DNA from: Amphiscolops sp. MND2022
Taxonomy: Eukaryota
Length of the DNA stretch: 64,000 bases
Reading direction: 5' to 3'
Assembly (NCBI GenBank): GCA_964187785.1
Contig: OZ076409.1
Span: forward strand, 52,888,001 to 52,952,000
Part shown: piece after piece, positions 1-47,600 of the stretch
Numbering within the stretch: the stretch's first letter is position 1
Layout: each line of letters begins with the position of its first letter
Made by a program: the position numbers and the translations under genes
Notes under the pieces: generated by a model
Told to the model about the DNA's origin: nothing
Seen by the model: the letters and a program-made list of their open reading frames with translations, nothing else
Database searches by the model: none

Positions 1-20
1 AGTTCTACATAACAACGAAT

Positions 21-2544
21 TTGGTTGAAGAATTCACAAGCCTCAGTAAACACCTCGAAAACTCATGTCAATTAGCTCTGAGGCAACCCCTCAAAGACAA
101 GCAACTCAGAGTTATGTCAGATGCAAGTTTCACAGCAGCAGGATATGCTATAATAGAAGAAGACGATCCAAACCAAAAGCTACAATCCAAACGCAAAACG
201 TATGCGCCTATAGCGTTTGGATCCAAAACTTTCAACCCAACACAAACAAAAATGTCAAAATATGCGAAAGAATTCCTTTCCATATATTTCACCTTTGTCG
301 AATTTGGACACCTCATGTGGGGTAGTACATTCCCCGTCATAGTGTTTACAGATAACAGATCAGTGACACGATTTTTTCAAGCAAAACTTATCCCTCCATT
401 ACTCTGGAATGCATGCGATTATGTTTTGCAAAACAGTTTCGTAATTGCCCATGTTGCTGGATCTATGAACACCGCAGCGGACTTCCTCTCACGAACGGAA
501 GTCAACCCCATCGAAAAACTTGAAATGAACATTCGCAACGATATACAAACTAAAGCGATCGAAGTCAACATACAATCGACAGGCATCGTCGAAGAAAAAC
601 AAATCTACATTCTTCCCGATGATGAAATTGAAGAAAACCAAATCTGGCAAGAAAAACTTAATGTACGCAATCAAGCTCAAAACGAAACACACAATGAACC
701 AAAAAACAGTGTAACAGAACTCCAAATTTTCCATAAACCAACATCTGGCTCAAATACCTGCTCAGAAGGCCACTTCAAAGACTATGCCAGAATCAGACTT
801 GAACAAAACAATGACATAATCCTCAGAAACCTTAGAGCTAAACTGGAAGGCAATCCCTTCGATGAAAATGACCTAGCATCCGACTACAGATATCAACACT
901 ACCTGCAAAATATCACCCGAATTGAAATCAAACAAGAAGTCCTAACACGACGATATCACACTAACACAGGAACAACATCACACTACCAAATTTTACTACC
1001 AGTACAGCTTTTGGAGGAACTCCTCCAAGCGTTACATGGACATAACTCAAACCACCCTGGTATCACTAAAATGATTCAGGAAGTTCGGCAAAAACATTAC
1101 TACCCATGTATTGCCAAATACATCAAAAAATGGGTTAGTAACTGCCAAATCTGCATCCAGACGAAAAAAATAAACAACGACCTCCTCCTCAAGACCGAAT
1201 TGCTGAATTGCACTGAATGGGACCTAGGTCCTGAAGACATCCTACAAATGGACATCCTCCCTAACCTCCCTAGTGGAGGGTACGATCACATTATCACGGC
1301 AATAGATGTTTTTTCACGATACTTGTTTGCCTATCCAGTAACACGCATTACTGCCACTGCAGTAGCACTAGTCATAATGGACATTCTCTGCAAGCACACA
1401 TACTTGCCAACAACCCTAATCACCGATTTGGGCACTCAATTCAACGCCCAAGTAACTCACGAAGTAGCCGCAATTTTGGAAATTGAACTCAAACACGCGA
1501 CAATGAAACACGCCAAAACAATTGGAATCCTAGAAAGGACACATGCTTCCGTAAAAACACAACTCAAAGCGGCAACGGGAGATTTCCGACACAACTGGCA
1601 CAAATTTCTCCCATTAGCAGTACTAAATCATAACACAACCTACCACGCATCATTAGGTTGTGAATCTTTACGAGTTTTTCATGGGAGAATACCCCATAAT
1701 ATACTCGATTACAAACTCGAATACAACCCTAACCCAAAATATCTACCACAAACAGATGTAGCAGAAGAGGTACAGCGACGCATGAAGGTACTTCTTGACC
1801 AAACGAAAAAGAATATAATGCAATTCTATCTCAAATACAAAGCCTATTACGATAGGAAAGCAAAAGCTTCCCCACTCGAAACGACGGACTACTGCTACAT
1901 ATTGAACCCGAAAGCAGATACTCAAGCAACAAAAATACCCTTTCGCGAATTCAGATGGCAAGGGCCATACAAAGTCGAAAAAGTGCTTCCAAACAATAAC
2001 TACATAGTTAGAAGGCTTGGAACCAATAGAACCCAATTGTTACACCGAATTCGTCTACGAAAATTTTCGTCCGAGAAACAGACTGGCAAAACGATGATCA
2101 GATGCCCATAGAGCATGATGACCTATACGCACAATCTTGGAATACAAACTTTGGTCCCAACCCGTTTGAAGACAACCCCCCAGAGTATTCACAAGATGTA
2201 GAAGATATTGAATACTTACCAACTACAGAACCCGAACATAACCACCCCCCCCCTCCCGCGAATTTGCACAAAATAGTGGGGGGAGCCCAGTGGAACAGAC
2301 CACTGAACCAGATCAAAATCACGAAATTCATACAGATGAAAACCCACAACAAACTAGTGAAGATGACCAAAATACCCAAAAATTGCAAAAAGAACCAAAT
2401 AATCCATCAGATAACAATACCCAAAAAACCCCAGAAAACTCCCAAAATACCCCATTGCAAGAAGAACCCATAAATACCCGTGGTGAAAAATATAACTTAC
2501 GTCCTAACCCCAACCCAAACTACTCTGATACAAATAGATATTAA
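21..2544 (+). pseudogene. pol: Gypsy pol C-terminal part (RNase H, HHCC zinc-binding, DDE integrase, GPY/F), tail frameshifted
   Basis: Motifs SDASF, FTDNRS and NTAADFLSR (RNase H); H..HPGITKM..CQIC; MDILP/TDLGTQF/ERTH; WQGPYKV. The tail continues in ORFs 2102..2473 and 2290..2544 and ends KYNLRPNPNPNY, like the end of B pol. Confidence 0.93.
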
Positions 2545-2773
2545 AAACCACTTAAAGACTCTGACTCCTACAGATACTAAGAAAACAAGTACAGAGGAAG
2601 TTTTCTTCTCCGCTGACTTCCTAAGCCCGCGCAATGCGCGATTAAGTATCCTTTTTATTTTCTGCTATGGAATAACTGTAGTACACCCAAATAAATACAC
2701 GGTGTCTACATAAAACAAATAACAAGATACCAAAACAAGCGTAAAAACGCAGTTTACAAAAAAAAGACTACAA

Positions 2774-5700
2774 TCAGTTTTTCTTGCACTTTAATGATGT
2801 GGAACTGTTTTTCTTCAACCCTCTTTCTTGATCGGTACTCGAACATCGATTGAGTGCAACATTGATACGGCCCAAAGAAAGATCTGGCGACGGAGAGCTG
2901 TTCACGCTACTCGTACGGCTTACACTGGGTGTGGTAGTAGTGGAAGATACTACGGGTCTCTCAAGTCGTAACACAGCTTTACGGTACCCCATCTCCATCT
3001 TGCCCTGCAATGAAACACGACGGGAATTGCTCCCTTTCAAAAGGTTCCAGATTGAGAACTTTTTATCAGAGAGTAATTCATCTCCTCGTCACAAAAGACG
3101 AAAGACATGACTTATGACTTTTGGGTCACGAAACAAGCTGGAAACGTGTGGTACAGTCTGAAAGGAGACCTGAAGGCTAACCACACATGACTGAAACAGG
3201 CTTTTATCTGAATTGAGATCTGGAACGGGTACATCAAATCAGGGAGGCACGTCCACTACTGGTGCAAGAGTTAGACACGAAAGCCTGAAGAGCCGCAATC
3301 ATTCAGGACGACACTGAATTTAATAGTGGGTTACCACAAATTGTAACCAGTCATCGTACTCCGGAGCAGGATCTGAACGTAATTTTGTCACAAATGATCG
3401 GTACTGGCTAACCACCCGCACCTTGTCATTGGAAGAAAACAACACAGCAGAGAAAAAAATGAGATGATAATTTTTAAAGGCTGTTGTATACACATCTTCA
3501 TGACTCTCGAGAACCACTGGGGAGTCGAAAGCAGACAACCCTCTGAGCAAATTGGATCTGACAACGTCGTAATTCATCAAAGTTTTACAAAATGCTTTGC
3601 AAAAATTAATAGACTGGTCGACAAACTTGCCGGGTCTGGGCAGTTTACTGGCTAAAACCAATTGATGAAAGTTTTCATTGAGAACAAAGTCATCACTGCT
3701 TTTGAATGGAATGGTGGATGAATCTAGGTCGAGATTGAGAAAAACATCCCAATCGGAACTGCTTCCCAGGATATGATCTGGCAGGATGTGTTGCAGTTGA
3801 GAATAAGTAAAGACTGCAAATTGATTGAAGAAACGAAATCCTCCATCGAGCCGCCTTTGAGTTTCAGAAAAGGCTGAATTGTCTGAAACAAATTAAAACG
3901 GTCAAAAGCAGCAAGCTAACATGTATTAGAGAACAACTTCAACTATGAATGCAACAAACTGTGAACATCCAATTCGGATCGTGAATGAAATTGCAATCCA
4001 AATCCACGTTTATACACCATTATGCGGAATTTAATTAGGCACACATCATAATTCATCATTTTAAAATGGGCATTATGCGGCACTGTGCGGATCGAGGTGT
4101 GACGACTATACGTCACTATGCGGATTGAGGTGTGACGATTATACGTCACTATGCGGACCTGAGTTTGATGACTATGCGTCATCATGCGGATTGAAGTGTG
4201 ATGATCATGCGTCACTATGCGGAACAAGCATGATGAACAATACCCCTCCATGCGAACTACGAAGAACAATCTAGACGACAGTATGCGTTTTGAGAACAGA
4301 CGATTATGCAGTATAATACGGAAAAGTGTACATTGTTACAGGGAAGAGTTTATTGCATTAACGAATGATAAGTTACGCTTTCCTTTAACAGGAAAAGGGA
4401 AATACCCGAGAATAAAGGACGGTTGTCCTAGTAGTGAGTCTAAGGAACCGACGTAGATTTTACAAAGAACAAAATCACAAGAAGAATTTGACGCTGTGCG
4501 AAACTGTTGGAATACAAAACATAGAAGTGAAAATAGAAGACACTAACAGTGATCAAGGTCGCACCGAATAATGAAAAGCCTGGCCAAGTAGGCTGTGTCA
4601 AGACGAAAGGACTCGTCGAGGGTATTTGGCTAAAAGAAACATAATAATAAGCAAGTGAAAGTTAGTTATGCCGGAAATAACAAAAGGAAGACTTACTTCT
4701 CTCATATGGAAACGGTATACGGGCAGCCTGGCGACGTGATTCAGGTGATCTCGTACTTGTTCCCAGTTGTTGGACAAAGTCTCGATGAGGCTTGAAGCTT
4801 CATCAAGGGTGTACTCCAATCGAAGGACGCACTAGAAAAAAAGGAAAATCTAGATGACGAATGGGCTAGCATAGAAAATATGGGAAAATACAAAACCTGG
4901 TGTAACAAGGTCAAATTCTGTAGCCAGTCCCGATCTAAGGCAGTTCTGAGTTTCATCAGCAAAAAGTCCAGGATAGTCCTGAAGTCGTGTCTTTCAATAA
5001 TTTGGACTGTGGGGGTGGCTAAACTGCGCTCAAATTCAGCAGGTCCATAGGAAGTTACAACTGAAGGAGGTTTGGCCCCGGGCAAAGTAGAAGTAAGACA
5101 TTCGTTGAGTTTATCTCCAAAGCCAATGAGAGACACACAGGTTGGAGCTGTCTCGAACAAACTCAAGAACGAAGCTACAAGAGAGAGAATTTTTCGTGGT
5201 AAGAGCATGCCACGAGGAGCCCCACCAATACAGTCCCGGTGTAGAACGTTCTCTGACCAGAAACAAAGGATCACGAAAGTAAAGGTAGTTGAATGCTGTA
5301 TGGCCAATGAATAGTGTCCTGAGGAAGATATGGCTCTGACGCAATATTCCATTAACTCTCGGAACATGTAGACTAGAAGGCCCTCAAATTAGAGAACCTA
5401 TTAACACCCCTGCATTTAAATGTGAAGTTGGGGATAGAAAGATGAGTTATGAAACTTACAAAAAGACGTTGCTGATTACAATTCTGAACAGACAAGTGGT
5501 CACTTGAGGTCAATCGTGTCAGTTCATCATACATTCCGGTTAAACTTGACACACTTCCTCCATATCTGAGTCCGAACTCCAAAATACTGATCTGAGACAG
5601 TATTTTCTCAGTGGGACTAGTTGCGGCACTGAAATCCGGGACTGATTCTTGCTCAACAAGTGGGCGGTATGAGTCAAGTTGTGGGGGGATCGGGTAAGTA

Positions 5701-7153
5701 TCTTTTGCCTTCTTCTTGGCATTCTGGAGAGCCGCACTTAGCAATTCCTTCTCGTCTTTGTCAGAGTCGCATTCCGGGTACCTCCATGCGGACACGTTGT
5801 TCTCTGACTAGATGTGAGTCGGAGCGATAATGAGAAATGAGCTCCAGACTACCGCGGCTCATAAGAGAAAGCTCAAACCGACACACACGACACCACCACT
5901 TGTAGGGCGATTTCTCCTTGTTCAATGGTCACGTGGCAGAGAACTTTAGAACTGGGTGTCGCTTGAACATGCTCCCGGTAAGGGAGTATTTGGGCCTACG
6001 ACGTTTGCCTCGAGAAGATGTGGCATGTTGGTCATTTCCTTCTAAAATGACTTCTGCACCCATGCTTCCTCCTACATCCTCCTGACTAGAGGTAGTAACC
6101 ATAGCTGTAGGAGTGAGGTCGTCTACCATGGTGAGACTCAGAGGTTGATTGATATCGATGCCTTCCCCACTAATGAGAGTTTGAGGAATTCGACCAAGTA
6201 CACTTGGCAAAACAAGAACTTCCTGTCGAGTGATGCTAAGATTAGGAAGAGTATTGGTCATCAAAGCATCTTCATTTGAGGCAATATTGAAAGAGTCAGG
6301 TCCTCCGTTTTCACCATGCCCAGAAGTTGCACCAGAAGCAATGGACGTTGGAATTGCAGAAGCCACTGTCTCATCTGGGTCCTGCTGAATAAAATGGCTA
6401 AATCCTGGAAGAGAGTTGTGTGGTACGCCGGAATAATCCTGGCTAGCGAAGACTTCCTGTGCAAATTCACTGAATGGTCGGTCCATGGTAGGTGAGTCAG
6501 ACACAACTCCAGGTGTGTCTTTTTTAGAAGAAGATTGAAGGTTTTCTTTTTGTCGAACCGTTTTGTCGCTTCCTTTCTCGAGCTTTTGGGAAACTGTGGG
6601 GTACTCGGGCTATCGCAGCCCTCCGCCTCATCAATTTGGAGAGGGCGACTGCTGGGGGTCTCTACAGCACTAGAATGTCCTAATGTCCGTGGGGTAGCGA
6701 CTTGCAATGGAGCTTAAACTTTATCTGGTGAGCTAGACGGCGTCACTTGGGCAGATTCTCGTTCGACTGAAAACAATAAAATATTTCCTTAAGAGAAGTA
6801 GAACATATTCCAGCAAGCGGAAATCGTTTTGTTATTTCCCGAAACCGGACGCGGGGACAGGAAATGACGAAGACAGCGGAAGCCGCTTAGAAATCAGAAT
6901 CAGAAACGTTTCGAAAAAGTTGAATTTGGTATTGGAAATTGTTTCTAGCCATATTCACCCTTTTTGCGGGCCAGGCCAGCCTTTGCAAAAAACCCCAAAA
7001 TTCAAACAAATCAAATCCAGAAGGAAATAAGTTGGACTTACGGGAAGGCTCAACTGGCAAGTCAGTGTTCCAGAAGTCATCCTGGTAAAGGGGGCCTCGT
7101 TCTTTTCGAGATCTCCGTTTGCTGAAGATATCTGACCCAGAGTTCGGTTTCAT
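2774..7153 (-). pseudogene. Element A antisense spliced accessory gene: C2H2 zinc finger plus hAT-transposase-like body, disrupted by stops and frameshifts
   Basis: Inferred exons ~6810-7153 (donor uncertain), 5460-6766, 4697-5397, 4548-4629 and 2774-3882, with GT-AG introns 5398-5459, 4630-4696 and 3883-4547. WWCRVC...HYRSDSH finger at about 5812-5892. Collinear with the B gene at 36319-40351. Confidence 0.8.
4081..4230. repeat. About 4.5 copies of a 33-bp tandem unit (CACTATGCGGATTGAGGTGTGACGATTATACGT-like) inside an intron of the antisense gene
   Basis: Units start at 4081, 4114, 4147, 4180 and 4213. Confidence 0.9.
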
Positions 7154-7570
7154 ATCGGGGTACAGAAGAAAACGACAAAGAGTTTTGACAGAGCGAAGGG
7201 GGACAAATGAGAATCAGAACAAGGAAGTGAGTCACAACAAAATGCTAAGTAAATGGATAGCTGGGCTCGGGTGAAGAAGTTACGACGAAAATTGAATCTG
7301 TAAAGACTGAAGACTGTACTATAAATGCTGATTTGACTGAATTTTAAAGAGGTTAACACGATGATACAACAAGGCGTGGCGTAAAAGGAAGGTAGAAAGC
7401 AAATGAAACAAATTGCGCTAATGTGTGAAAGAAATACTGGAATCTGATTGGATGATTAAATGTCAATTACGTCTGCCAGCGTGATTGATTGACTCGCCAT
7501 CACTCTGGATGCGAGAATATACACGAATACAGTACAGCGGAGTGAATTGGAACGATTTACTACGCGAAAG

Positions 7571-7720
7571 TATGCGGCATTATGCGGATAGTCTAGCGAT
7601 GAACATGCGGCAGTATGCCGAAGTGCAGAGACGAGTATGCGGCAGTATGCGGAATTACTAACTGAAGACTATGCGGCAGTATGCGGAACGAGTAGTGACG
7701 TATACGCGGCATCCTGCGGT
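7571..7720. repeat. Array of TATGCGGCAGTATGCGG dimers with about 33-bp period, between the divergent accessory genes of A
   Basis: Five paired TATGCGG-like motifs read directly. Confidence 0.85.
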
Positions 7721-8557
7721 TTTCGCTGTATGTGTTCGCAGAAATGGACCAATGCTAATATTGAGTGAATGAATCATTATTACATAACAAACTAAAGAAA
7801 CTAGGTGTTATTTGTCACAAATGGACGTCTGATGTTATTATTATGCATTGAATGTATGCATTTGTTGCTCTTTCGAACAAGATTTAATGTGTCATTGGGA
7901 TATCAATATGATACCTCAGTTAGAAACTCTTTTTATGTAATTCTATCCTTGATTTCATTCGTTTCATTAAAATTATTTGAAAAAACAACCATACGCACTT
8001 TTCAAGTGCGGGACTAAAACAAAACAAAATGCTTCTTGCAGTTGAAGTCTGTTTAAAACAGGATTCAACTAATGTGAACCCTCTTTTAATGATTTACATT
8101 TCTCTTTGCATCCAGTCATGCAAATTCGGATAAATATATTTTAGTTTCAGTAAATTGGCAAATCTTGTAAACCACATTTTCATTTCTTTTACTTTGATGT
8201 TAGGTTAAATTTGTTTATGTATCATTTGAAACTCCAATGAAACAGTGTGAAGAACGCTGAAGTGAGGAAATAAGGTGATGAAGAAAGGTGGAACACCTAA
8301 TATGGAATTTGTTTATGGCTTGATGCCGTTAAACCTCGTGATCAGAAACCCCGCAAAACCCTTATAAGGGAATGAAGAAGATCAGAGCATGACGAGCGAT
8401 GTTTTTCGCGGGTTTTTTACCCCTAAATAAGGGAGATTTCAAAAATCCCTCATCATATGGTCTTTGTAAAACTACAATACAGTCGCTTGAAAAACAAAAC
8501 TTCTTTTCCTTCAGCAGAACAAAACTTTGTCTAATATTTTCTCAACATTCTAAAGAA

Positions 8558-9625
8558 ATGAGCAACCTGCAATTTGTCCTGGAGGAAGACTCCCTCTATT
8601 CTCCAATATCCCTGGATGTGATAGACATTTCCAGCAACTCTGGAGACGAATTCTTGGTTGAACGCGGAAATGTGACACAGCTAGATGAACGATTTAGGGT
8701 CAATCAAATAACCCAAGATGCTATGACCACTTTCATGGGGGCAGCAACAGCGATGTTTTTCCCGTCAAGCAACGACCCCATCTTACAAGGCAACGTCATA
8801 GACACTACTGGAACTGGCATTGAGCAGGAACTAATGGAACTAATTGAGGAGAGCAGGATTGTTAGCCCTGTTTCGCTCACGTCCTTTGTTGACAGTGAGT
8901 TTGAGGAGGCCAACGAATCACCAGAGGAGCTTAGAGGAGACGGCCCCGACATTATGATAGTGAACAGTTACGGCCGCCCAACTGCAGCAATCCTTCCTAC
9001 TCCTCGTACGAACATTGTATAACCAGGAGGTGTTAAAGTGGTACCACCCACTTACCCACAAAACTACAATCCAGAAGCGTCAGCATTTCGCCCACAACAT
9101 AGAAATGCACATAATGACCAGGATTCCTCAGTAGGTCAAGTGTACAATATGGAGACCGCAGACACGCATGTTATGCCAACATTTGGAGGGGTGTCTGACA
9201 ATCTCGCAACTGCCAACATGACCCCTCTGATAATCCATTTGCCACCCAGAGGAGGACCTGACACCCTACAGGAACATAACCTCCCAATCTACCCAGGTGT
9301 GCAAGGGGGCTTTCCTTTTCACGTGGTACATAGTCCGAATGTGCTGTTCATCCCAATCGACGTTAGACGAAACTTCAGGCTTTTTCCAACAGTGATGCCG
9401 AATGTAGCTGGACACTGCGACCAATGTGGAAAGACTTATGATCAAGTTGCCCTCGAGACTTTGGGAAATTATCTAGCAACCACCACCTATGAAGGAGAGA
9501 CAGTAAGAGATCGTGGTGTCCGGTCACGAGCCTTCATTGACGGGTTCGAAGCTATCCTGTTCATCTTCAAAAGAGCGGGACTGTCTCAGCCTGTCAGCTG
9601 TGCTGGGTCCGAAGTGCAGCAGTGA
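8558..9625 (+). pseudogene. Element A sense accessory ORF (about 355 codons, one TAA at 9020-9022); acidic N-terminus with VIDISS, and a CxxC (HCDQC); ends inside the 3' LTR
   Basis: ORFs 8399..9022 and 9038..9625 are in the same frame, with an ATG at 8558. Confidence 0.7.
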
Positions 9626-11113
9626 ATGAAGAAGAACAGAAAGAGCTCTCACCCCGATGATTAAAACTGACACTAACCACCCAATTCCTTCTTGAAAACT
9701 TGCATAAACATTTTAATTGGGGGTTATTTATTTGATTTGTCATTTTGAAAGATGCTAAACAAATATCTTGAACAACCCTTTTTGTAATAAGTTTGCTCTA
9801 TGCATCAAAGGAGAGATAAAATGCATTAAAATTTGAGACAATTTACCTAGAAAGATCATTGCATGACTAATAGATTACGTAATGATATCGTTTTTTGAAC
9901 TCAACACCATTAAATGAACATTTGTGCTGATGACTATGCGTCATTATACGTTTTGAGCTTTGTTGAATAATCACAAACATGCCTTTTTTATAATTGAACT
10001 ATGCGGCATCCTACAGCCCGATGCCTGATGATTACTCGTCACTATGCGGACTACCACTATGCGGTACCCCGCGGTTTGATAAGTAACGTATACTCGTCAG
10101 TATGCGTTTTTAGCATGATAACCATTCAAAATGAGATATAACGTTATACATTTCAATTATTTTTCCGAGTACGCGCTTGACAGTCTCCAACGCAGTTTTC
10201 CAGGGTTTTTTTGGACCTATTCATCAGTTTTGAATGTGATATAAATATTCTGACGTAATGATGATGCTATCCTATTTTTGCCTCCCAGGCCAGCGTGATT
10301 CCTCTAAAAAGGAGTGTCATGCTCCCAATTTTTTTAAGTAAATTAACTTTAGCATAGATATTCATACCAATTTTGACCCTCACTGTGATCAGTTGCTATA
10401 ATCATCACTCTAACTAAACTGTAAAAGCAGTTTTTTCCAACATTAGCACCGTTTCTTTGAAATACCTTTTGGTATTTGGAATACTTCAAGACAATTCAAA
10501 TTCTTCCCCAACAACCAAAATACACCTTTTCGCTTGAGCAAGATGGGAAATAAGAGAAACAGAAGGTCCAGGAGACTGGCAACACCATCTCCTGACAGGG
10601 AATTGAGCGTAACACAAGTAGAAACACCTAATCCAGGTAATGTGACTTTAACTAATTCTAATGTTAATGTTCAAGAAGGTTTAGGTGAAAACAGCTCTTT
10701 AAATCAATTAACTGAACCCAGTTTACTCAACAGTGAAGTTCAAGTATGGACCCAAATAATGGAACAGAAGAATGATAGCAAAATCGAGAAAATGAGAGAA
10801 GAAATGGATAGTGAACTTGAGGCGATTTTGAGAGAAGTTAAATCAAATAAAACTGCATCAACAATGACAAACCCAAGGTCAGATTTCAACGAAATGCAAG
10901 ATTCACAACCTTTGGGATCCAAAACAGCCAAGTCTATAGGAGTTCACGCATCTAATAACGAAAACTCAGATTCTGAAAAAGACGATTTTCCTCTCAGAGC
11001 TTCTAAAATGAAAGACCTAAAGCATCCTGCGAAACCGCTATTCCGGAGCGAATCTGATGTAGATGCAACTATACATTCAGACGAAGAGTCTGATATAGAA
11101 GAGGATTATCACA
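9582..11113 (+). repeat. 3' LTR of element A (about 1.5 kb), containing TATGCG repeats and the gag N-terminal ORF from ATG 10543
   Basis: A PPT-like AAAAGAGCGGGAC precedes TGTCTCAG at 9582, and the LTR ends TTATCACA. The start is inferred by analogy to B because no 5' LTR is available. Confidence 0.65.
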
Positions 11114-12251
11114 TCAACATTTTACTATGCGGCATCCTACAGCCCGATGCCTGATGATTACTCGTCACTATGCGGACTACCACTATGCGGTACCCCGCGG
11201 TTTGATAAGTAACGTATACTCGTCAGTATGCGTTTTTAGCATGATAACCATTCAAAATGAGATATAACGTTATACATTTCAATTATTTTTCCGAGTACGC
11301 GCTTGACAGTCTCCAACGCAGTTTTCCAGGGTTTTATTGGACCTATTCATCAGTTTTGAATGTGATATAAATATTCTGACGTAATGATGATGCTATCCTA
11401 TTTTTGCCTCACAGGCCAGCGTGATTCCTCTAAAAAGGAGTGTCATGCTCCCAATTTTTTTAAGTAAATTAACTTTAGCATAGATATTCATACCAATTTT
11501 GACCCTCACTGTGATCAGTTGCTATAATCATCACTCTAACTAAACTGTAAAAGCAGTTTTTTCCAACATTAGCACCGTTTCTTTGAAATACCTTTTGGTA
11601 TTTGGAATACTTCAAGACAATTCAAATTCTTCCCCAACAACCAAAATACACCTTTTCGCTTGAGCAAGATGGGAAATAAGAGAAACAGAAGGTCCAGGAG
11701 ACTGGCAACACCATCTCCTGACAGGGAATTGAGCGTAACACAAGTAGAAACACCTAATCCAGGTAATGAGACTTTAACTAATTCTAATGTTAATGTTCAA
11801 GAAGGTTTAGGTGAAAACAGCTCTTTAAATCAATTAACTGAACCCAGTTTACTCAACAGTGATGTTCAAGTATGGACCCAAATAATGGAACAGAAGAATG
11901 ATAGCAAAATCGAGAAAATGAGAGAAGAAATGGATAGTGAACTTGAGGCGATTTTGAGAGAAGTTAAATCAAATAAAACTGCATCAACAATGACAAACCC
12001 AAGGTCAGATTTTAACGAAATGCAAGATTCACAACCTTTGGGATCCAAAACAGCCAAGTCTATAGGAGTTCACGCATCTAATAACGAAAACTCAGATTCT
12101 GAAAATGACGATTTTCCTCTCAGAGCTTCTAAAATGAAAGACCTAAAGCATCCTGCGAAACCGCTATTCCGGAGCGAATCTGATGTAGATGCAACTATAC
12201 ATTCAGACGAAGAGTCTGATATAGAAGAGGATTATCACATCAACATTTTAC
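10000..12251. repeat. Tandem duplication, 1126-bp unit (10000-11125 / 11126-12251)
   Basis: ORFs 10534 and 11660 are near-identical. The junction ...CATTTTAC|TATGCGGCATCC has 2-bp AC microhomology. Confidence 0.95.
10543..11113 (+). CDS. gag: gag N-terminal segment encoded in the LTR (MGNKRNRRSRR...EEDYH), truncated at the LTR end; copies at 11669-12239 and 14095-14665
   Basis: Basic N-terminus and a coiled segment. The frame meets the LTR end as codon+A, exactly as in B, where gag continues into the PBS. Confidence 0.6.
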
Positions 12252-12559
12252 GTTGGGCCATACGGGAACAGCATACGTTTGGGCCCTGCTCAAGTCTCAA
12301 AAATAGCAAGAGTATTTTGAAGCGTCATAGATTCTCTTTCGAATAAATTCTCAATTTCAAAGTACCAAAATAAGCCAAAGACCTTTTTGAAGGGGAGGGT
12401 GCATTATTTCCAATCATCCGCCTCCTCTTCGGTAATACACAATTTAATTCGGATATAATGTCAAAATTCGGATATAGTGCAATATTTTTGAGCCTCTGCT
12501 TCTTCTTTAGCAAAACACAATTTATTTTCATATATACCGTCAAAAGTATAAAAGTTTGA

Positions 12560-14963
12560 ACGAACATTGTATAACCAGGAGGTGTTAAAGTGGTACCACC
12601 CACTTACCCACAAAACTACAATCCAGAAGCGTCAGCATTTCGCCCACAACATAGAAATGCACATAATGACCAGGATTCCTCAGTAGGTCAAGTGTACAAT
12701 ATGGAGACCGCAGACACGCATGTTATGCCAACATTTGGAGGGGTGTCTGACAATCTCGCAACTGCCAACATGACCCCTCTGATAATCCATTTGCCACCCA
12801 GAGGAGGACCTGACACCCTACAGGAACATAACCTCCCAATCTACCCAGGTGTGCAAGGGGGCTTTCCTTTTCACGTGGTACATAGTCCGAATGTGCTGTT
12901 CATCCCAATCGACGTTAGACGAAACTTCAGGCTTTTTCCAACAGTGATGCCGAATGTAGCTGGACACTGCGACCAATGTGGAAAGACTTATGATCAAGTT
13001 GCCCTCGAGACTTTGGGAAATTATCTAGCAACCACCGCCTATGAAGGAGAGACAGTAAGAGATCGTGGTGTCCGGTCACGAGCCTTCATTGACGGGTTCG
13101 AAGCTATCCTGTTCATCTTCAAAAGAGCGGGACTGTCTCAGCCTGTCAGCTGTGCTGGGTCCGAAGTGCAGCAGTGAATGAAGAAGAACAGAAAGAGCTC
13201 TCACCCCGATGATTAAAACTGACACTAACCACCCAATTCCTTCTTGAAAACTTGCATAAACATTTTAATTGGGGGTTATTTATTTGATTTGTCATTTTGA
13301 AAGATGCTAAACAAATATCTTGAACAACCCTTTTTGTAATAAGTTTGCTCTAAGCATCAAAGGAGAGCTAAAATGCATTAAAATTTGAGACAATTTACCT
13401 AGAAAGATCATTGCATGACTAATAGATTACGTAATGATATCGTTTTTTGAACTCAACACCATTAAATGAACATTTGTGCTGATGACTATGCGTCATTATA
13501 CGTTTTGAGCTTTGTTGAATAATCACAATCATGCCTTTTTTATAATTGAACTATGCGGCATCCTACAGCCCGATGCCTGATGATTACTCGTCACTATGCG
13601 GACTACCACTATGCGGTACCCCGCGGTTTGATAAGTAACGTATACTCGTCAGTATGCGTTTTTAGCATGATAACCATTCAAAATGAGATATAACGTTATA
13701 CATTTCAATTATTTTTCCGAGTACGCGCTTGACAGTCTCCAACGCAGTTTTCCAGGGTTTTATTGGACCTATTCATCAGTTTTGAATGTGATATAAATAT
13801 TCTGACGTAATGATGATGCTATCCTAATTTTGCCTCCCAGGCCAGCGTGATTCCTCTAAAAAGGAGTGTCATGCTCCCAATTTTTTTAAGTAAATTAACT
13901 TTAGCATAGATATTCATACCAATTTTGACCCTCACTGTGATCAGTTGCTATAATCATCACTCTAACTAAACTGTAAAAGCAGTTTTTTCCAACATTAGCA
14001 CCGTTTCTTTGAAATACCTTTCGGTATTTGGAATACTTCAAGACAATTCAAATTCTTCCCCAACAACCAAAATACACCTTTTCGCTTGAGCAAGATGGGA
14101 AATAAGAGAAACAGAAGGTCCAGGAGACTGGCAACACCATCTCCTGACAGGGAGTTGAGCGTAACACAAGTAGAAACACCTAATCCAGGTAATGAGACTT
14201 TAACTAATTCTAATGTTAATGTTCAAGAAGGTTTAGGTGAAAACAGCTCTTTAAATCAATTAACTGAACCCAGTTTACTCAACAGTGAAGTTCAAGTATG
14301 GACCCAAATAATGGAACAGAAGAATGATAGCAAAATCGAGAAAATGAGAGAAGAAATGGATAGTGAACTTGAGGCGATTTTGAGAGAAGTTAAATCAAAT
14401 AAAACTGCATCAACAATGACAAACCCAAGGTCAGATTTCAACGAAATGCAAGATTCACAACCTTTGGGATCCAAAACAGCCAAGTCTATAGGAGTTCACG
14501 CATCTAATAACGAAAACTCAGATTCTGAAAATGACGATTTTCCTCTCAGAGCTTCTAAAATGAAAGACCTAAAGCATCCTGCGAAACCGCTATTCCGGAG
14601 CGAATCTGATGTAGATGCAACTATACATTCAGACGAAGAGTCTGATATAGAAGAGGATTATCACATCAACATTTTACGTTGGGGCATACGGGAACAGCAT
14701 ACGTTTGGGCCCTGCTCAAGTCTCAAAAATAGCAAGAGTATTTTGAAGCGTCATAGATTCTCTTTCGAATAAATTCTCAATTTCAAAGTACCAAAATAAG
14801 CCAAAGACCTTTTTGAAGGGGAGGGTGCATTATTTCCAAACATCCGCCTCCTCTTCGGTAATACACAATTTAATTCGGATATAGTGCAATATTTTTGAGC
14901 CTCTGCTTCTTCTTTAGCAAAACACAATTTATTTTCATATATACCGTCAAAAGTATAAAAGTT
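12560..14963. repeat. Second duplication: copy of the end of the sense ORF, the 3' LTR (13134-14665) and about 300 bp of flank
   Basis: 12560 onward matches 9008 onward (offset 3552). 14666-14963 matches 12240-12556 with a small deletion. Confidence 0.95.
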
Positions 14964-20700: not shown

Positions 20701-21490
20701 CTACTTTCATATTAACCTCATCGTGAAAAAAATTATCCGGTAACAAAAAACAAACCGAAGACACAGTCAAAAAAGCTGATATTGAATTTATGCTGGACCT
20801 GTAGAGCCTGATATCCAGAACTGCAGTTGATCCCGAACTAACGATAGTGGGAGCAAGCATGAGACGGTAAAACAGAGAAACAACCCGCAACGAATACAGG
20901 TCGGTATTCGACAAACACTCAATAAGATGGGGTTTCGTATTTACGAACGACCAAATTGTAGTTCCGGTGGATCACCGAAGAAGGCTACTAGACATCCTTT
21001 ATTTCGGTCATGCCGGGACCACGAAGATGCTGGCCGAAACAAAAATTTTCTAGTGGCCGGAAATTAACCGGGACACATAAAACAAAATCAAGGAATTGTC
21101 GCATCAGGTAAAAGTTTAAAATATCAATTACCGAGTAATCACTACGGGAAATTGAAAAAGTTATCCGAACCGGGCCAAGAAATACAAATTGATTTTACCG
21201 AAAAATTACATAATAAGATAAAAGACTATATACAAATTTTGATAGCGGTAGACCGATTTAGCAAATGGCCAACGGTAAAACCGTGTAAAACCGCAGAAAC
21301 AAAAAAGTTATAAATTTCTTAACAACAAAATTTGAATTTACTCGGAATACCCGATAAGAAAATCCGATAACGGAGGAGCTTTTGCATTGGAAGAATACAA
21401 AAAATTCTGCAAAAACCGAAATATAAAAATTGAATACTGCACACCCCGGTGACATACGGGAAACGGGACGGTAGAAAGAGCGATACAAAC
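17753..21490. repeat. Internal tandem duplication in C, 1869-bp unit (17753-19621 / 19622-21490)
   Basis: Identical ORF translations at offset 1869, including the lesions. Confidence 0.95.
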
Positions 21491-22589: not shown

Positions 22590-22931
22590 GTTGTTAACCG
22601 AATACTATATGCGGAAAAGAAACACCACAACCGGAGAGATTTCTTCTGGGCGAAACAGGCGGAAGAAGAAACACCAGAATAATTTTGAAGACGGATAATT
22701 GAAATCGAAAAAGAATGTCATTTCAACATAGTCTCGGCGGAAGAACTATTGATATCGAAGTACATGACTGCGATCGCCGATAAAAAGTTATGGGATAAAA
22801 TAATGAAAGAAAAGACACTAATTGAAGCAAATAATGGAACTAATAAAACAGGACACATACGAGAAGAACAAAAAGAACACGATTCCACAAGCACTGATAT
22901 CATCAAAGGAAAAACAAGCTATTAAAGAAGA
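22590..22931 (+). repeat. Copy of C gag segment 16320-16661 placed at the PPT/3' LTR junction
   Basis: Near-identical sequence at offset 6270, replacing the first ~20 bp of the 3' LTR. Confidence 0.9.
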
Positions 22932-35600: not shown

Positions 35601-38600
35601 TCGCTCAAGTATCCTACCATATTGAGAGGCAGCGTTTTTATCGGTGTACTGGTCTTATTGGCTTCTTCATCTGACGAGATGTCGATAACTAGCGAATAGT
35701 TATTCATTTTAGTAGGAGAGAATACTGAGTACTATTTCGGAAAGGTTGCAGGTAGTTTGTTAGTGAGGATTTCTTGTAACGCTTCAGAAAATTGAGAAAA
35801 TTTTAAGCTGGTCAAGCTTCTGCTGAAATTGGACGACAAGTGAACGTTTTAAATTATTTCCTTTCGGAAATTTCATCGAACTTCTATTGGTCGATTTTCC
35901 GTTTTCGTTCCGGTTCGTCACGAGTTAAAGGAAACGAGTTCTTTCTTGCTGCGTTATGATTGGTCGAAATACTTGAGGGAAACTTCTAATTTTAGTTTCC
36001 GTCCTCTTTTCGGTTAATGGCGTAATGACGTCACAGAATTACATCTGTAGTCCGTGATCTTTTAATAATTTCCCAAGTTCTTCTTGACATTTCTTGGTGG
36101 ATTTTTATCCACTGTAAGGTCTTTGGAAACGTTTTGTTCCGTCTATGCCATAATAGGCTTTTATTGGAGTTGAAGATAGGGTGATTTTCATTTATGTAGG
36201 AATGATGTTATTAATTTCCTCCCAATTAGTTGCGTTTACGTAACGTAATTCTTCTTCTTTGTGATTTTCGTTCTTTTTTTTTAAATTGCTGTGGGCATCT
36301 TTGCTGTCGTTTCTTTCTATGGATGACGAAACTGCTCCGCTCCAAGGCACCGTCACCGGATTTGTCAGTGGCAATGAAACCAATTTTTGTTATACTGACG
36401 ATGACGTGATCTTTTCGGAGGTGGAGGCAGTGGTTACTTCTTCAGGTTGGTAAAATCTTTCTGACTTTCATGGGTAATTGGACTGTTGTTTTGGTGATCA
36501 GCCTTTTCAGTCTTACCCGAATACCTGACGCGTCAAACCAGATCTTGATTTTCAGTAACTCAACCTGGCGCTTCAACTGCGGTTGTTTCCGTAGCCACTG
36601 CGGGAGTTCTTTCGACAGAGGCTACTGTTCTGCCATCAGTTTCTACTATCTTGTCTTCTAAGCCTTCTAGTGCTGTTAACGAAATGTTAACCACTGTATT
36701 GACTAGCGCTGAGCCCGACGATTCATTTCCAGTCGACTCTTCTCCTGTCATTGTTGGTCCGAGTACGCGAGTTGTTGCTGCAAGTAGCGATAGTGAGTCT
36801 CAAGAAGGTGAGACAGATCCCCCGCCAATAGAAAAACCCGTTGATAGATTCGTTTTTGATGGTATATTTCTGGTATGTGGGCGGGGTGTACGAAAATTAT
36901 TTTTGTTGTTGTAGATATGAGGGATGCTGAGACGTATGGACCTTCCAACATTTGTGTGACGCCATCGAAACGGGCAAAGAAGGTTGTTATCGCTCCGCCA
37001 TCGCCTCCTCCCTTGGTGCATGCTTCTACTGGTTGGCAAAGTTAGTTCTAATATTGTTTTTATCTTTCGTTTCATTCTTTGAATTGGGGAGAGTGTTAGT
37101 TGCCCATTGGTTTGGTTTGTTTGGGGATGTCCTATTTTTTGGTACTCGTTTTCATTGGGTGTTGATGTTGTGTAGGTCACGATGATGATCAGTTGTATGG
37201 TGTCGGCGGTGTGACGTTGAGTCCCCAGGATGTGATGCGATTGGGTCAGCAACTTGTGGAAGAGGTGACGGAAAGTGCTACGCTGGTTATTCAAAACGGT
37301 TAGCGTTTGCGTTTTCCCTGTAATTCGGGTATTACTTTGTTGTTTGGTGAGGGTTTTCGTTCATTTTCAGTGTAGTGTGTATAATCTTTATCCCCTTCGT
37401 GTCTTGTTTGTAGAGTTGTAACAGTTCAGTGGGAAGGTAGAAAAACGTCTGGCCAAGCGGACAGTGAAGACATACGGGAATCGCAACACGTTGCATCGTC
37501 GTATGTTGAGTCGACATCCTGCTTTTCCTGATTTCGTGACAGGCTCCACGACTGGTGAGGGAACTCACTTCCACTGTCGGGTATGCAAGCGTGATGTGGC
37601 CATGAAAGCTCAGGGCTCTGGAGAGTTTAGCAGACATTTCCGTTCTGATGCTCACTGGTTTAAGGACGTTACTTATCGCGTCCATATGGGTCTTCAGGTG
37701 CTCAACAGGTTGATGGAGCCGATGGAACTGTCAGCAAGTCAACTGGCAGACTATAAGTCTCGACCATTTTGTGATCTGAGCGGGGAGTATCCGTTCCCTG
37801 AAGATCTATTGCCCAAGCATTCAAAAGCGGAGTCAAACGTGCCCTACATGACCTTGGTTTCTTGTTTTTGCAAATTCTTGCGGAATGGTTGTGATCTTGA
37901 TTATCTTCGTCGTCTGTGGGGCCACTTCCGAGCAACATTGGGCGACCGAGAACCTTGCTTTCCTTTACGATGGAGCCGTTCGGAGACCGTGGTGAGTTGG
38001 TTTGGGTATTGTTATTGTTTATTTCCGTCATGTATCCGGGTGAGAGAAAACAGAAAGGGATGGGGGAATGTCTGTTGTAGTTGTTTTGAAAGTAGGGTCT
38101 CGTTTGTGTTTTAGTCATTCCTTTGTCGGGGGCTGGCTCCGCGAGTTCTTCGTCTGATGTTGAGTGACGTCAAATCTTTTAAAGAGTACGGGATGCAGTT
38201 TGAGAAGTCTGGGTGCATAGAACGTTGCTATGTTCTTTGTTAGGATGGATTGAATTTAAAGAAGATTTGTGTGGGAGATCAGTCCTTGGATCAAAAAATG
38301 CCCGAACCCGAGTTGCTCCCATTGGCACGTGTAGCGAGCTGCCTAGAGGGACAGCAATTACCGGTGTCAGTTCTTGGCGCTAGCCCTTCCCTCATTCGCA
38401 TGTTAGACGCGAACAGGACGGATGATCGGCGGTTTCTGTCATGGCAGTCGTTTGATGAGGAGGTGTTTCTCCATTGTTTCCGTCAGTCTCATCAGGACAT
38501 TTTTGGAATGATTGAAGTGACGACTGCATTGGAGTATGTGATTCATCGATTGAAAGGGGCTTTGTATGAGGATTGGACAGAAGACAGGCCTCTTCTTCGA

Positions 38601-44600: not shown

Positions 44601-47600
44601 TATTGAGTGTTCGATACTCACAGGGATTGTTGCGTAGATGATTCGGGTAGAGTGCGCTGGGATTGTATGCTTGGCTTCGGTCTTTATCGTGATGGGTTTG
44701 GGATTGCACTTTTGTCTTTCGTCTGTGAGCGCCATCGTTATTTGGATCTTAGGAAAGTCAATGGTTCCCTGTGCCGTGTCAAGGATTGCGGCATGCTTAC
44801 GTAAGAACGCTAATCCAATTATAGGGAATGACGTTTGATTCATGATGATGAATGTTTCTTCAAAAGTGTAATCCCCTATTTTGAAACGTAGGGTGTACGT
44901 GGCAAGTGGTTGTTCTAATTCGGCGTTGGCATACTGCACTTTGAAAGGGGGTGGGGGTGCCTTATTGACGATGCACTGACTGGCATGCTGTCGGAGTTTT
45001 TCAGCGTCCCTTTCGCTAATAGCGTTAATGTACGCACCTGAGTCGACTAAAGCGTCGATTTTGACCGTGTTGAATTCGACTGGTAGGAAAAGCATTCGTT
45101 TTTTCTTCTTGAGCGCGATGGAAGACATTAACGGGAAGTAGTCGTCGTCTTTGTCATGTTGGATGAATTCCTTGATGGTGTCTAGATCTTCAGGCAATTT
45201 TGAGGGACATTCCGTGATTTCTACGTCGTCATTCATTAGTGTTGTGACGGGCGCGGTTTTTGGAGGGGTCACTGAAGGATCAGCATTTTCTCGTTTTCGT
45301 TTTTCTTGATGCGCCCATATGGTTTTGTCCTCGACGCAGATGATGTTCTCAGCGTCTATTGGTGTGGACGTGATGGTGACGGGTACTGTTGGGGATGGTG
45401 TTGTTCTCTTGAGAATTGGCGATGGTGGTGATGGTAGGTCCATGATTTCTGTGGATTGAGCCTGGGAGTTTGAGACTTGTATTTTGAAGGAGAGTTTGTT
45501 AGTATCATAAATGGTTGGTTCATCCCAGGGATCGCATCTGTAGTCTCTATCATAGATGTAGATACGTTCAGTTTTTGATTCTGGTAAGGGTCGCTTGAGT
45601 GTTGCGTAGTTATCTGGTGACTCTGTTATCCATTGAGGTAGCGGTGTTGGGTCGTCTGGATGTCTGGCATTGTGTCGGAGTATCATGCCTACGTTCCATC
45701 GGCGTTGCCAGTCCTGACTTGGTTCTTCGTTACACTCTGTGAAAAAATTTTCTTCGTACCTATTTGGGGGGTCTTCGATGGTGTACGCCCTCGCGTCTAC
45801 TTTGTCCCCGAAGCGTAGGCGCGGCGACTTCAGTTTTTTGCTTGGTACGACGTCGTAGGTACGGGTTGTTCGTCAATCTTGTTTGTTGGGATAGTGAACT
45901 CACGTTTGCGTTTCCTGGGGTCATTTGCCGCATTGGCTCCGTCCCAGCAATTTTCGGTTTTGTGCATTTTTCCACAAGTAACGCATTTGGGTTTAGCTGT
46001 ATCTGTTGGTTTGGTGTCTGTGGTACTTGTTTTTGTGGCGTAGTACCTGTCTTTGCGGAGGCGACGGCATTGTGCCTTGTAATGTCCGTATTTCCCACAG
46101 TGGAAACAGTAACCTCTCTGCTGTTTGTCTTTCTTATCGTCCGCCACTGCTGCGTCCACGGTGTTGAGGGGGACTAGGGTGGTTTCATCAGGTGCTCCTA
46201 GCCCGTTGAGTCGCATTTCACGTTCAATGTGTAAAACAATGTCGTTATAGGGCTTATCTTCTAGGTAGGCTCTGTTAAGGATCTTTTTGACGTGATCCGG
46301 CATTTTAGCGTATATGGCTTTGTCGATGAACTTCTGGGCTTCTGAGCCAAACGCTTCTTTTGCGGTTTTTTGTAACGCGTCAAGAAATTCGTGGAGTTTT
46401 TGTTTGGTGGGGTCGAAATGTAGCGCATCCCACTCACATCTCGCTTTGGCGGATGATTGGAAATCACCAAAGCGACGTTTGAATGCCGTTATGACTTCTT
46501 CTAGGTTGTCTTTTTTAGTGTCATCTAGATTACAATACGCTTGTAGCGCGTTTCCTCGTAGGAGTGAATGGAAGTAGTTGATCTTTTGTATCTCGGTTAA
46601 GTGAGGGTACATTTTGATGTTATTTCGGAATAGGTCCTCAAAAAGTTCAAACTTTTCGAACTTACCATCGAAGACTGGAAGTGAAGCAGTGAGTGCTTTC
46701 GGCATCGGGAGTAGATTGGTAGATGGAAATGTTTGCGGTTGTGGCGCGAACAGTATTTTAGAAGTGGAAGGACGATCTTTTGTTTGTTCGTTGGATGCGC
46801 GTTGTTGTTTCGATCTTTTCGTGGGTTGGTTGGTAGAGTCATTGAGGACTCCTGTCACCATGTTACGACTATTTACCGGTGTTGTTTTAGAGTTAGTCGC
46901 AGTGTGAATTTTGACGGGGGTAGACGTTCTTGCTACGGAGACATTCTCTGGTTCAGAGTCCGAGTCTTGAGCATTCATGTAGACAGTCTGTTTTTTGTTT
47001 AAGGGCGCTATCAGTTTTAACATTTCCTTCTGGTTTTCCGCAAGTATTTTGGTGAGATCAGACATAATATCTTTTCTTAATGATGTTTTTATCTCAGCCA
47101 AGTTTTCTGGTTCTATCATAGGGATCTTGCTAGAACTAGCTGCAAGAGTTTCAGGCGGAAAGTTTTCGGTTATGGAGGTTTCAAAATCGCCAGAGACCAA
47201 TTCTGCTACAGCCTTCCTTTTCTGACTTCTAGTTGTCATTTTGACTCAGAGGGAGAGAGAGAGTATCTTTGGAAAGGTTAAATTCTTCAAAGATTCGTTT
47301 TCGTTATAATAACGGAACTGAACTGATTGTTATAAGTCAAGTTGGAAAACTAACTGATTCACATGTATGTATTACATATTTATACCTTCTCAACATCATT
47401 TGTTCCTCACCTAAAAATTCCTAGGTATCACAAAAATCGGGTTTATTCAACAAAAAGCGCTAATGATTCATATTATTTCAGTCCTGCGTCATAATATCAG
47501 GCATCAAAATTCCTAGTTACGTCAGCGTTCCGTAAAATTTGTTGAAGTCATTTTTGTTCAGGCGGTTCATTACCTGTTTGTGCTTCAAAATTGCGGTAAA

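What the first reader, a model, noticed from the sequence alone, without database searches (positions are those of the whole stretch)
4081..10110. Three phased TATGCG(G/T) motif arrays within element A: candidate binding sites for its own zinc-finger protein
Seen: paired TATGCG motifs 10 bp apart, repeated at about 33 bp, occur in the last intron of the antisense gene (4081-4230), between the divergent genes (7571-7720) and in the LTR (about 9930-10110). The motifs are conserved while the spacers vary. I did not notice such arrays outside A and its duplicates. Inference: these are helically phased, CpG-containing operator arrays, like hAT subterminal repeats or VANC target repeats.
Basis: partly seen in the sequence, partly recalled or inferred. 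Interest (0 to 1): 0.75.

Follow-up and report, generated by a model that had tools for sequence, protein, structure and literature searches.

The report
Retrotransposon motif arrays beside zinc-finger gene
A retrotransposon carries three clusters of a paired short DNA motif around its own backwards-facing zinc-finger gene, and a related element has a different finger and a different motif, which suggests, without yet showing, that each family makes a regulator for its own sequences.

Summary
The arrays are real. Element A is a Gypsy LTR retrotransposon with a spliced antisense zinc-finger gene. TATGCG occurs 18 times in its three non-coding blocks (0.7 expected; 0 of 300 shuffles), always on the pol strand. 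The sites form 14 degenerate pairs 10 bp apart, all with a CA-N linker. A pair profile trained on one array ranks every pair of the other two in the top 15 of about 127,000 positions; spacer profiles do not. A diverged A subfamily appears to keep the array (indirect evidence). Sister element B has no TATGCG but has its own oriented motif, TACGGA (8 in its LTR, 0.33 expected), and a clade-specific finger. Corrections: only 3 of 14 pairs are exact; array 3 is irregular and probably lies just upstream of the LTR; the period fits 11 bp, not 10.5; the window shows no CpG-methylation signature; this copy's finger gene is broken. Best reading (0.45): cis arrays bound in trans by the family's own finger protein. 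Host factors, RNA-level recognition and drift remain open. It works like VANC or TnpA, is built like Retand, and belongs to none of them. Binding is not shown.

The parts
3..2111 (+). Element A pol, 3' part (RNase H, integrase); Gypsy domain order
   Evidence: Pfam RT_RNaseH, Integrase_H2C2, rve
2774..3882 (-). Last exon region of the antisense gene (helical domain); premature stop at 3320-3322
   Evidence: hhalign to B-clade alignment A1: probability 92.5, E 4.7e-7; ORF list
3883..4547 (-). Predicted last intron (about 665 bp; roughly 170 bp in B by eye) that holds array 1
   Evidence: Splice-like sites and equal 82-bp preceding exon in A and B; no transcript evidence; an extra small exon inside is not excluded
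4074..4222 (+). Array 1: five pairs at 33-bp period; weaker outlying sites at 4011-4027 and 4249-4321
4548..4629 (-). Predicted 82-bp exon before the array intron
5812..5892 (-). C-x2-C-x16-H-x5-H zinc finger of the antisense gene; stop at 5929-5931 just upstream and a frameshift near 5765 in this copy
5929..6713 (-). Poorly conserved N-terminal part of the finger exon, ending in a basic patch
7561..7719 (+). Array 2: five pairs spaced 33,32,34,33 bp with unrelated spacers, between the divergent genes
8558..9625 (+). Sense accessory reading frame(s) with an in-frame stop at 9020-9022 and one CxxC; no family found
9935..10107 (+). Array 3: four degenerate pairs spaced 65, 33, 58 bp, plus a single site at 10058
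10306..11113 (+). Candidate polypurine tract (10306-10314) and 3' LTR (10315-11113) holding the start of a gag-type frame; no TATGCG in it
   Evidence: boundary inferred, no 5' LTR in the window
11124..11233 (+). Partial duplicate of array 3 in a tandem duplication (9998-11125 = 11124-12251, 99.5%); not independent
13487..13659 (+). Full duplicate of array 3 (9008-11135 = 12560-14687, 99.4%); not independent
37422..38114 (+). Element B antisense finger exon (34% identical to A over the 38-residue finger); comparison case
47529..48906 (-). Element B LTR motif TACGGA, 8 copies on the pol strand, four of them as two 11-bp pairs (48252-48268, 48320-48336); repeated in the other LTR near 34168-34252

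Best explanation
The arrays are cis-acting DNA binding sites for the zinc-finger protein of the A family's antisense gene, supplied in trans by intact copies. SHOWN: an oriented, constrained site of about 17-24 bp (two half-sites 10 bp apart) repeated at about 33 bp in three non-coding blocks around the finger gene and near the 3' LTR; a conserved clade-specific finger; a different motif with a different finger in B. INFERRED: each finger reads one half-site in the major groove; several protein copies load cooperatively on clustered pairs; clustering gives family specificity; the bound arrays control antisense, sense-accessory or LTR transcription, or keep the element's chromatin open against a silencing system other than CpG methylation. 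The arrays probably grew by local duplication of one ancestral unit, with selection on the pair and drift in the spacer.
For: Enrichment 18 against 0.69, strand 18:0. Held-out pairs all in the top 15 of about 127,000, spacers not. Array 2 keeps a 32-34 bp period with 37% spacer identity. A reading frame across array 1 finds P0193/P0194, whose 11-residue units fit the pair's codons at 39 of 42 tested positions in P0193; their contig lengths (227,588 and 469,202) equal those of P0174 and P0206, two of four members of one diverged A finger cluster; rough chance 2e-5. B: 0 TATGCG in 16.3 kb, TACGGA 8 against 0.33, 0 of 300 shuffles, same orientation, shared T-R-C-G-G core. Fingers: 48 of 55 A-clade and 52 of 78 B-clade proteins fit the spacing; all four zinc ligands are invariant by construction, a Glu four before the first His is shared (48/48, 51/52), and the residues 1, 5 and 8 before it are clade-fixed (Ser 47/48 vs Arg 51/52; Leu 45/48 vs Gly 42/52; Arg 47/48 vs Gln or His 48/52). 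Counting back from the first His these match Hermes BED base-contacting positions R70, S66 and R63, with N67 at the shared Glu (PMC10368747 passages; the mapping is my inference). Atlas look-alikes include zf-BED and zf-C2H2_12 at 0.86-0.87, a lead only. Precedent: VANC21 and TnpA bind clustered family-specific motifs.
Against: No binding, expression or chromatin data. Only two families have DNA here, and different families often use different host factors (own knowledge). B's motif is in its LTR only; its last intron and internal intergenic block show no CGG motif, so the layouts differ. Structure matches are weak and the best are RNA-binding U1/matrin/JAZ-type fingers (Z 5.5, rmsd 3.0, 64 residues; ZBED2 Z 2.5); Foldseek gives nothing at E 0.001, with ZBED1 BED second at E 1.0. 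No Pfam family reaches its cut-off for the antisense proteins. The period fits 11 bp rather than 10.5. P0193 also keeps part of the spacer, and the search that found it favours such cases; P0190 could not be linked to any listed finger protein; 3 of the 5 hits are unrelated or doubtful repeats. This copy's gene is broken. The pair's central 12 bp also occurs singly in a non-A repeat.
Confidence: 0.45

Rival explanations
1. The arrays are enhancer clusters for a host transcription factor; the antisense gene is merely a neighbour they drive.
For: All conservation and clustering results fit any DNA-binding protein. Units contain CGTCA/TGACG half-CRE-like and ATGCGG GCM-like words (names recalled, not tested). 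A's 9950-10260 block and B's proximal LTR share exact words (a 12-mer, a 10-mer and a 9-mer with TGACGTAA), so host-type sites do seem shared between families. A non-A repeat holds the same 12-bp core three times.
Against: The top motif differs between A and B in step with clade-fixed finger residues. The finger is held nearly invariant across about 48 A-clade clusters while its N-terminal region falls to 34-40% identity in the subfamilies compared, as expected of a domain tied to a fixed target.
Confidence: 0.28
2. The motif is read as RNA, on the full-length genomic transcript or on sense-antisense duplex, by the element's finger protein or a host protein, for export, packaging or stability (Rev/CERV-like).
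For: Strict pol-strand orientation in A (18:0) and in B's LTR (8 copies). All three arrays lie inside the genomic transcript. H-x5-H spacing, and the best structural matches are RNA-binding fingers. An 11-nt period is the A-form repeat (own knowledge). Four of five array-1 units can fold a TGAYG-N6-CGTCA hairpin. CERV is a spliced LTR-retrotransposon protein needed for genomic RNA export (PMC10309623 abstract).
Against: No structure is shared by the arrays: array 2 lacks the hairpin, and folding z-scores run from +1.6 to -3.2 over 12 folds. No Rfam match. Orientation is also explained by descent from one unit. B's sites lie far upstream of a TATA/initiator-like pair in its LTR, as enhancers do. 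The structural Z-scores are too low to decide.
Confidence: 0.13
3. The arrays are a drifting minisatellite spread within the element by slippage, gene conversion or template switching, with no function.
For: Array 1 is a conventional 33-bp tandem repeat. Upstream context (GA-N-GA) and some flanks are shared between arrays, which points to common descent. Retand elements often carry family-specific arrays of unknown function (PMC11963269 Discussion).
Against: Drift should not keep the pair while spacers fall to 35-44%, keep 32-34 bp spacing in array 2, keep the pair in a distant subfamily, or give B a parallel paired CGG motif.
Confidence: 0.12

Closest known systems
VANC anti-silencing proteins and their target repeats in Arabidopsis VANDAL transposons (PMC5735166, passages read)
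   Same: Short family-specific motif accumulated as tandem repeats in introns, intergenic and terminal non-coding regions of an element that encodes an accessory protein; related families have different motifs.
   Different: VANDALs are plant DNA transposons and VANC removes DNA methylation; binding was shown there. Here the element is a Gypsy retrotransposon, the protein has a zinc finger, sites come as 10-bp pairs, there is no methylation signature and binding is not shown.
TnpA of Spm/CACTA and transposase-derived regulators (bioRxiv 10.64898/2026.08.24.746577, abstract and passages)
   Same: Element-encoded sequence-specific regulator acting in trans on clusters of a CG-containing motif; motif groups follow element phylogeny; clusters rather than single sites give specificity.
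   Different: DNA transposons, helix-turn-helix domain, terminal location. The text has 0 occurrences of 'retrotransposon' or 'LTR'.
Retand/Grande/RIRE2 plant Gypsy elements and fungal Boty (PMC11963269 abstract and Discussion; PMC7264820 passages)
   Same: Gypsy element with a long pol-to-3'LTR region holding an antisense gene and, in about half of Retand elements, family-specific tandem arrays; a DNA-binding regulatory role is proposed but unknown.
   Different: Retand antisense proteins carry TRP28. Here the gene is multi-exon with a C2H2-type finger, and the same motif pair recurs in three separate arrays with unrelated spacers. The parts read do not link arrays to the protein as binding sites.
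hAT subterminal repeats bound by BED fingers, Hermes (PMC10368747, passages)
   Same: Possibly a BED-related finger; short sites whose exact spacing matters and cooperative binding of two fingers.
   Different: Hermes sites are 4 bp, next to terminal inverted repeats, and serve transpososome assembly; the key pair is palindromic. Here they are direct pairs, internal to a retrotransposon, and no transposase core was found.

Membership tests
Ty3/Gypsy LTR retrotransposon | RNase H before integrase in pol; LTRs with TG...CA ends | tested here: met
   Domain order in A. B is full length with 2,211-bp LTRs 99% identical and a 5-bp target duplication. A's LTR start is inferred only.
VANC/VANDAL system | Carrier is a VANDAL (Mutator-like) DNA transposon | tested here: not met
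   Carrier has Gypsy pol
VANC/VANDAL system | Protein homologous to VANC | tested here: inconclusive
   No Pfam family at cut-off for window pieces or homologues; no direct comparison with a VANC sequence was made
VANC/VANDAL system | Short motif clustered as tandem repeats in intron, intergenic and terminal non-coding DNA | tested here: met
VANC/VANDAL system | Motif differs between related families | tested here: met
   A TATGCG(G) against B TACGGA; two families only
VANC/VANDAL system | Element protein binds the motif and causes loss of DNA methylation | not testable with these tools
   No binding or methylome data. Indirect signs are against CpG methylation of repeats.
hAT subterminal repeats | Sites lie next to terminal inverted repeats of a DNA transposon | tested here: not met
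   Arrays are internal to an LTR element
hAT subterminal repeats | Binder is a BED finger | tested here: inconclusive
   Atlas leads 0.86-0.87; Foldseek ZBED1 E 1.0; best VIA matches are U1/matrin-type, Z 5.5
hAT subterminal repeats | Finger is part of a DDE transposase | tested here: inconclusive
   The last-exon helical domain matched nothing clear; middle exons were not modelled
Retand lineage | Antisense ORF and tandem arrays between pol and 3' LTR | tested here: met
Retand lineage | TRP28 domain in the antisense ORF | tested here: not met
   No such Pfam hit in 14 window frames, 36 aligned homologues or 13 further proteins; that TRP28 is a Pfam model is recalled
Retand lineage | Reverse transcriptase falls in the plant Retand clade | not tested
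   A's reverse transcriptase lies outside the window; no tree was built for B

The most novel reading that the evidence does not exclude
A large clan of Gypsy retrotransposons in an animal-type genome encodes its own spliced, antisense zinc-finger regulator, and each clade has co-diversified finger residues and paired cis motifs (A: TATGCGG pairs at 10 bp; B: TACGGAG pairs at 11 bp). This would be a VANC/TnpA-like self-recognition system in a retrotransposon, working without CpG methylation, possibly through a finger taken from a hAT transposase.
Probability: 0.35. Interest if true: 0.82.

Novelty: new variant of a known kind. Interest (0 to 1): 0.6.

Why it matters
The role of antisense accessory genes and of the tandem arrays beside them in Gypsy elements is stated as unknown in the two reviews read. 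This case names a specific protein domain, a specific paired motif and a built-in swap control (A finger and motif against B finger and motif), so one binding experiment can test it. If true, element-encoded sequence-specific self-regulation, shown so far in the papers read for plant DNA transposons, would extend to LTR retrotransposons and to a genome with no sign of CpG silencing. With at least 133 finger-exon clusters in the protein searches (78 B-type and 55 A-type), it would also give a natural series for finger-motif co-evolution.

Tried and rejected
No whole genome is held. Related-locus scans found nothing: viral contigs, metagenome contigs, genome contigs. So genome-wide enrichment and copy-level substitution rates could not be measured. 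Structure of the last-exon domain: model pLDDT 61, no clear fold match; my hunch that it is a hAT C-terminal remnant is neither shown nor excluded. Homodimer prediction for that domain: no verdict. PDB sequence searches for the finger alignment and the sense frame: nothing. Rfam: nothing at E 1. tRNA scan: none. Coding repeat (33 bp = 11 codons; a 130-residue frame is open across array 1): rejected, because array 2 has 32- and 34-bp steps and the search of 1.84 billion representatives gave only 5 weak hits, the related ones matching in the repeat but not the flanks. Separate mobile minisatellite: not supported in this window, since the only other arrays are tandem duplicates of A. Shared RNA hairpin: rejected as a common feature. 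CpG-methylation target: not supported, though 51 substitutions is a small sample and A's own CpG o/e is 0.77-0.82. P0189 and P0192 were dropped as unrelated repeats and P0191 as failing the CGC codon position. Earlier-findings look-ups by place and by sequence were empty. Paper searches on acoel methylation gave nothing usable (listings only).


Full report
SETTING. The window is eukaryotic repeat-rich DNA of about 40% GC. Element A runs from before base 1 to about 11113. It has the 3' part of a Gypsy pol at 3-2111 (RNase H then integrase), a multi-exon gene on the opposite strand from about 6700 to 2774, sense frames at 8558-9625, and an LTR-type end at 11113. Element B (32777-49071, minus strand) is a full-length relative with 2,211-bp LTRs and its own antisense gene. 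No genome is held, no runs were listed, and five locus scans were empty, so DNA evidence is limited to this window. All homologous proteins found come from ENA assemblies and carry no names. The host is not identified; from recall the sequence style suggests an acoel-like animal, which no call confirms.

OBSERVATION. TATGCGK has 33 matches against 7.6 expected; 18 are in the three arrays, 9 in duplicates of array 3 and 6 are scattered. In A's three non-coding blocks TATGCG is the top 6-mer (18 against 0.69; 0 of 300 shuffles reach it with any word), and each block passes alone. All 18 are on the pol strand; B has none in 16.3 kb. Allowing degenerate halves there are 14 pairs 10 bp apart with a CA-N linker in 14 of 14, but both halves are exact in only 3. 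Spacing is 33 x4 in array 1, 33/32/34/33 in array 2 and 65/33/58 in array 3. Between arrays, half-sites are 71-81% identical and spacers 35-44%. Because I chose the pairs by hand, I cross-validated: a profile of the pair from one array ranks all held-out pairs in the top 15 of about 127,000 positions, while spacer profiles rank them 569 to 124,842. A GA-N-GA stretch just upstream is partly shared too, so the conserved unit is 17-24 bp.

CORRECTIONS TO THE FINDING. Array 1 is partly a plain minisatellite (81% matches). Array 3 is weak and probably outside the LTR: the best purine tract plus TG start is AAAAAGGAG|TGTCATG at 10306-10315, which resembles B's LTR start. Against this, A's 9950-10260 block shares short words with B's proximal LTR and has a TATA-like box at 10240, so the boundary is open. 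Half-sites fit an 11.0-bp period (R 0.96, 0.93) and not 10.5 (0.36, 0.34); B's two pairs are 6.5 turns apart. CpG is not depleted window-wide (o/e 1.02; A 0.77-0.82), and 6 of 24 transitions in four duplicate pairs fall at CpG-type sites against 4.6 expected. The intron placement of array 1 holds by prediction: donor 4547, acceptor 3883, after an 82-bp exon equal in length to B's. Single copies of the pair's central 12 bp occur in a non-A repeat.

THE GENE. The antisense gene belongs to a large family: 55 clusters for B's last exon, 78 for B's finger exon and 55 for A's finger. A's last exon is homologous to the B set (probability 92.5). The finger is C-x2-C-x16-H-x5-H; 48 of 55 A-type and 52 of 78 B-type proteins fit that pattern. 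Within each clade the loop and helix before the first His are nearly fixed, and they differ between clades except for a shared Gly, Ser and Glu. Counting back from the first His, the clade-specific positions line up with base-contacting residues of the Hermes BED finger (PMC10368747 passages); this mapping is inference. The fold is beta-beta-alpha with an extended helix, but matches are weak: RNA-binding U1/matrin/JAZ-type fingers lead (Z 5.5), BED fingers appear lower, and Atlas leads are zf-BED and zf-C2H2_12 below 0.9. In this copy the gene has a stop at 5929-5931, frameshifts near 5765 and 4830, and a stop at 3320, so it can only be a target.

EVIDENCE FROM OTHER FAMILIES. First, B: its LTR upstream of the gag start has TACGGA 8 times against 0.33 expected (0 of 300 shuffles), on the pol strand, four as two 11-bp pairs. 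It shares a T-R-C-G-G core with A's motif. B's intron and internal intergenic block have no such motif. Second, a diverged A subfamily: I searched the open frame across array 1 against 1.84 billion proteins and got 5 weak hits. P0193 (and its cluster mate P0194) has six 11-residue units whose residues fit the pair's codons at 39 of 42 positions, the three misses being a variant also seen in the window. Their contig lengths equal those of P0174 and P0206, two of four members of one A-type finger cluster. That subfamily is 34-38% identical to this copy in the N-terminal region and 71-73% over the finger. This is indirect: it rests on back-translation and on contig length as a stand-in for position, and the search favours arrays with similar spacers. 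P0190 fits less well and is unlinked; the other three hits were dropped.

MECHANISM. The best reading (0.45) is that the arrays are DNA sites for the family's own finger protein, made by intact copies. One finger would read one half-site, pairs and 33-bp repeats would allow cooperative loading, and clustering would give specificity. The outcome would be control of the element's promoters or protection from silencing that does not rest on CpG methylation. Constraint on the pair and the A/B contrast are shown; binding, stoichiometry and outcome are inferred. Rivals: host transcription factor sites (0.28), RNA-level recognition (0.13; strict orientation, 11-nt period and matrin-like fold favour it, lack of a shared structure does not), and drift (0.12).

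COMPARISON. It works like VANC and TnpA: PMC5735166 (passages) shows VANC21 bound to a short motif that accumulates as tandem repeats in introns, intergenic and terminal regions and differs between families; bioRxiv 10.64898/2026.08.24.746577 (abstract and passages) shows the same for TnpA. It is not a member of either, since the carrier is a retrotransposon. It is built like Retand and Boty: PMC11963269 (abstract and Discussion) and PMC7264820 (passages) describe antisense genes and family-specific arrays between pol and the 3' LTR with unknown function, but the TRP28 domain was not found here. The hAT subterminal analogy fails on position. CERV (PMC10309623, abstract and a term search) is the precedent for the RNA rival. 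Six paper searches (listings only unless named above) showed no description of this zinc-finger Gypsy clan or its motifs; the library lacks most subscription papers and no supplements were read.

VERDICT. A real, constrained, family-specific motif system beside an undescribed antisense zinc-finger gene; several details of the finding need correcting, and self-binding is plausible but unshown. New variant of a known kind; interest 0.6.

Noticed in passing
window 32777-49071 (-): Full-length Gypsy element B, 16.3 kb, LTRs 2,211 bp and 99% identical, 5-bp target duplication, inserted into a third Gypsy family; each LTR includes the start of the gag frame.
   Followed up: partly
window 9008-14963, 17750-21491, 15762-16661 against 22590-23143: Several 1-2 kb near-identical tandem duplications (93-99.9%); one junction (9998/11124) falls at a motif of array 3 with 2-bp microhomology. 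Real duplications or assembly artefacts, not decided.
   Followed up: partly
window 24274, 24400, 61880, 28180: A non-A dispersed T-rich repeat holds single CGGCAYTRTG-type cores, identical over 12 bp to the centre of A's pair in three places.
   Followed up: partly
window 9959-10258 and B LTR offsets 1547-1629: A and B share exact words (TTTGTTGAATAA, GATGCCTGAT, CTGACGTAA) in different order near their TATA-like boxes; possible common host-factor sites; significance not tested.
   Followed up: no
window 2653-2674: 22-bp match (91%, E 0.16) to the start of B's LTR just after A's pol, next to a CGCGCA-A-TGCGCG palindrome; unexplained, may be chance.
   Followed up: no
window 55799-56173 (-): Frame that looks by eye like a hAT transposase fragment (recalled pattern); no supporting Pfam hit.
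   Followed up: partly
window 59046-59237 and 60024-60774: CAAGAT/CTTGCAAG-based satellite arrays with periods 9-87 bp, unrelated to the TATGCG arrays.
   Followed up: no
P0190: Protein-database frame with five 11-residue units largely compatible with A's pair but with a different spacer that may hold a third half-site; its element is unknown.
   Followed up: partly
window 40800-40928: 42-bp coding tandem repeat in the C-terminal tail of B pol.
   Followed up: no
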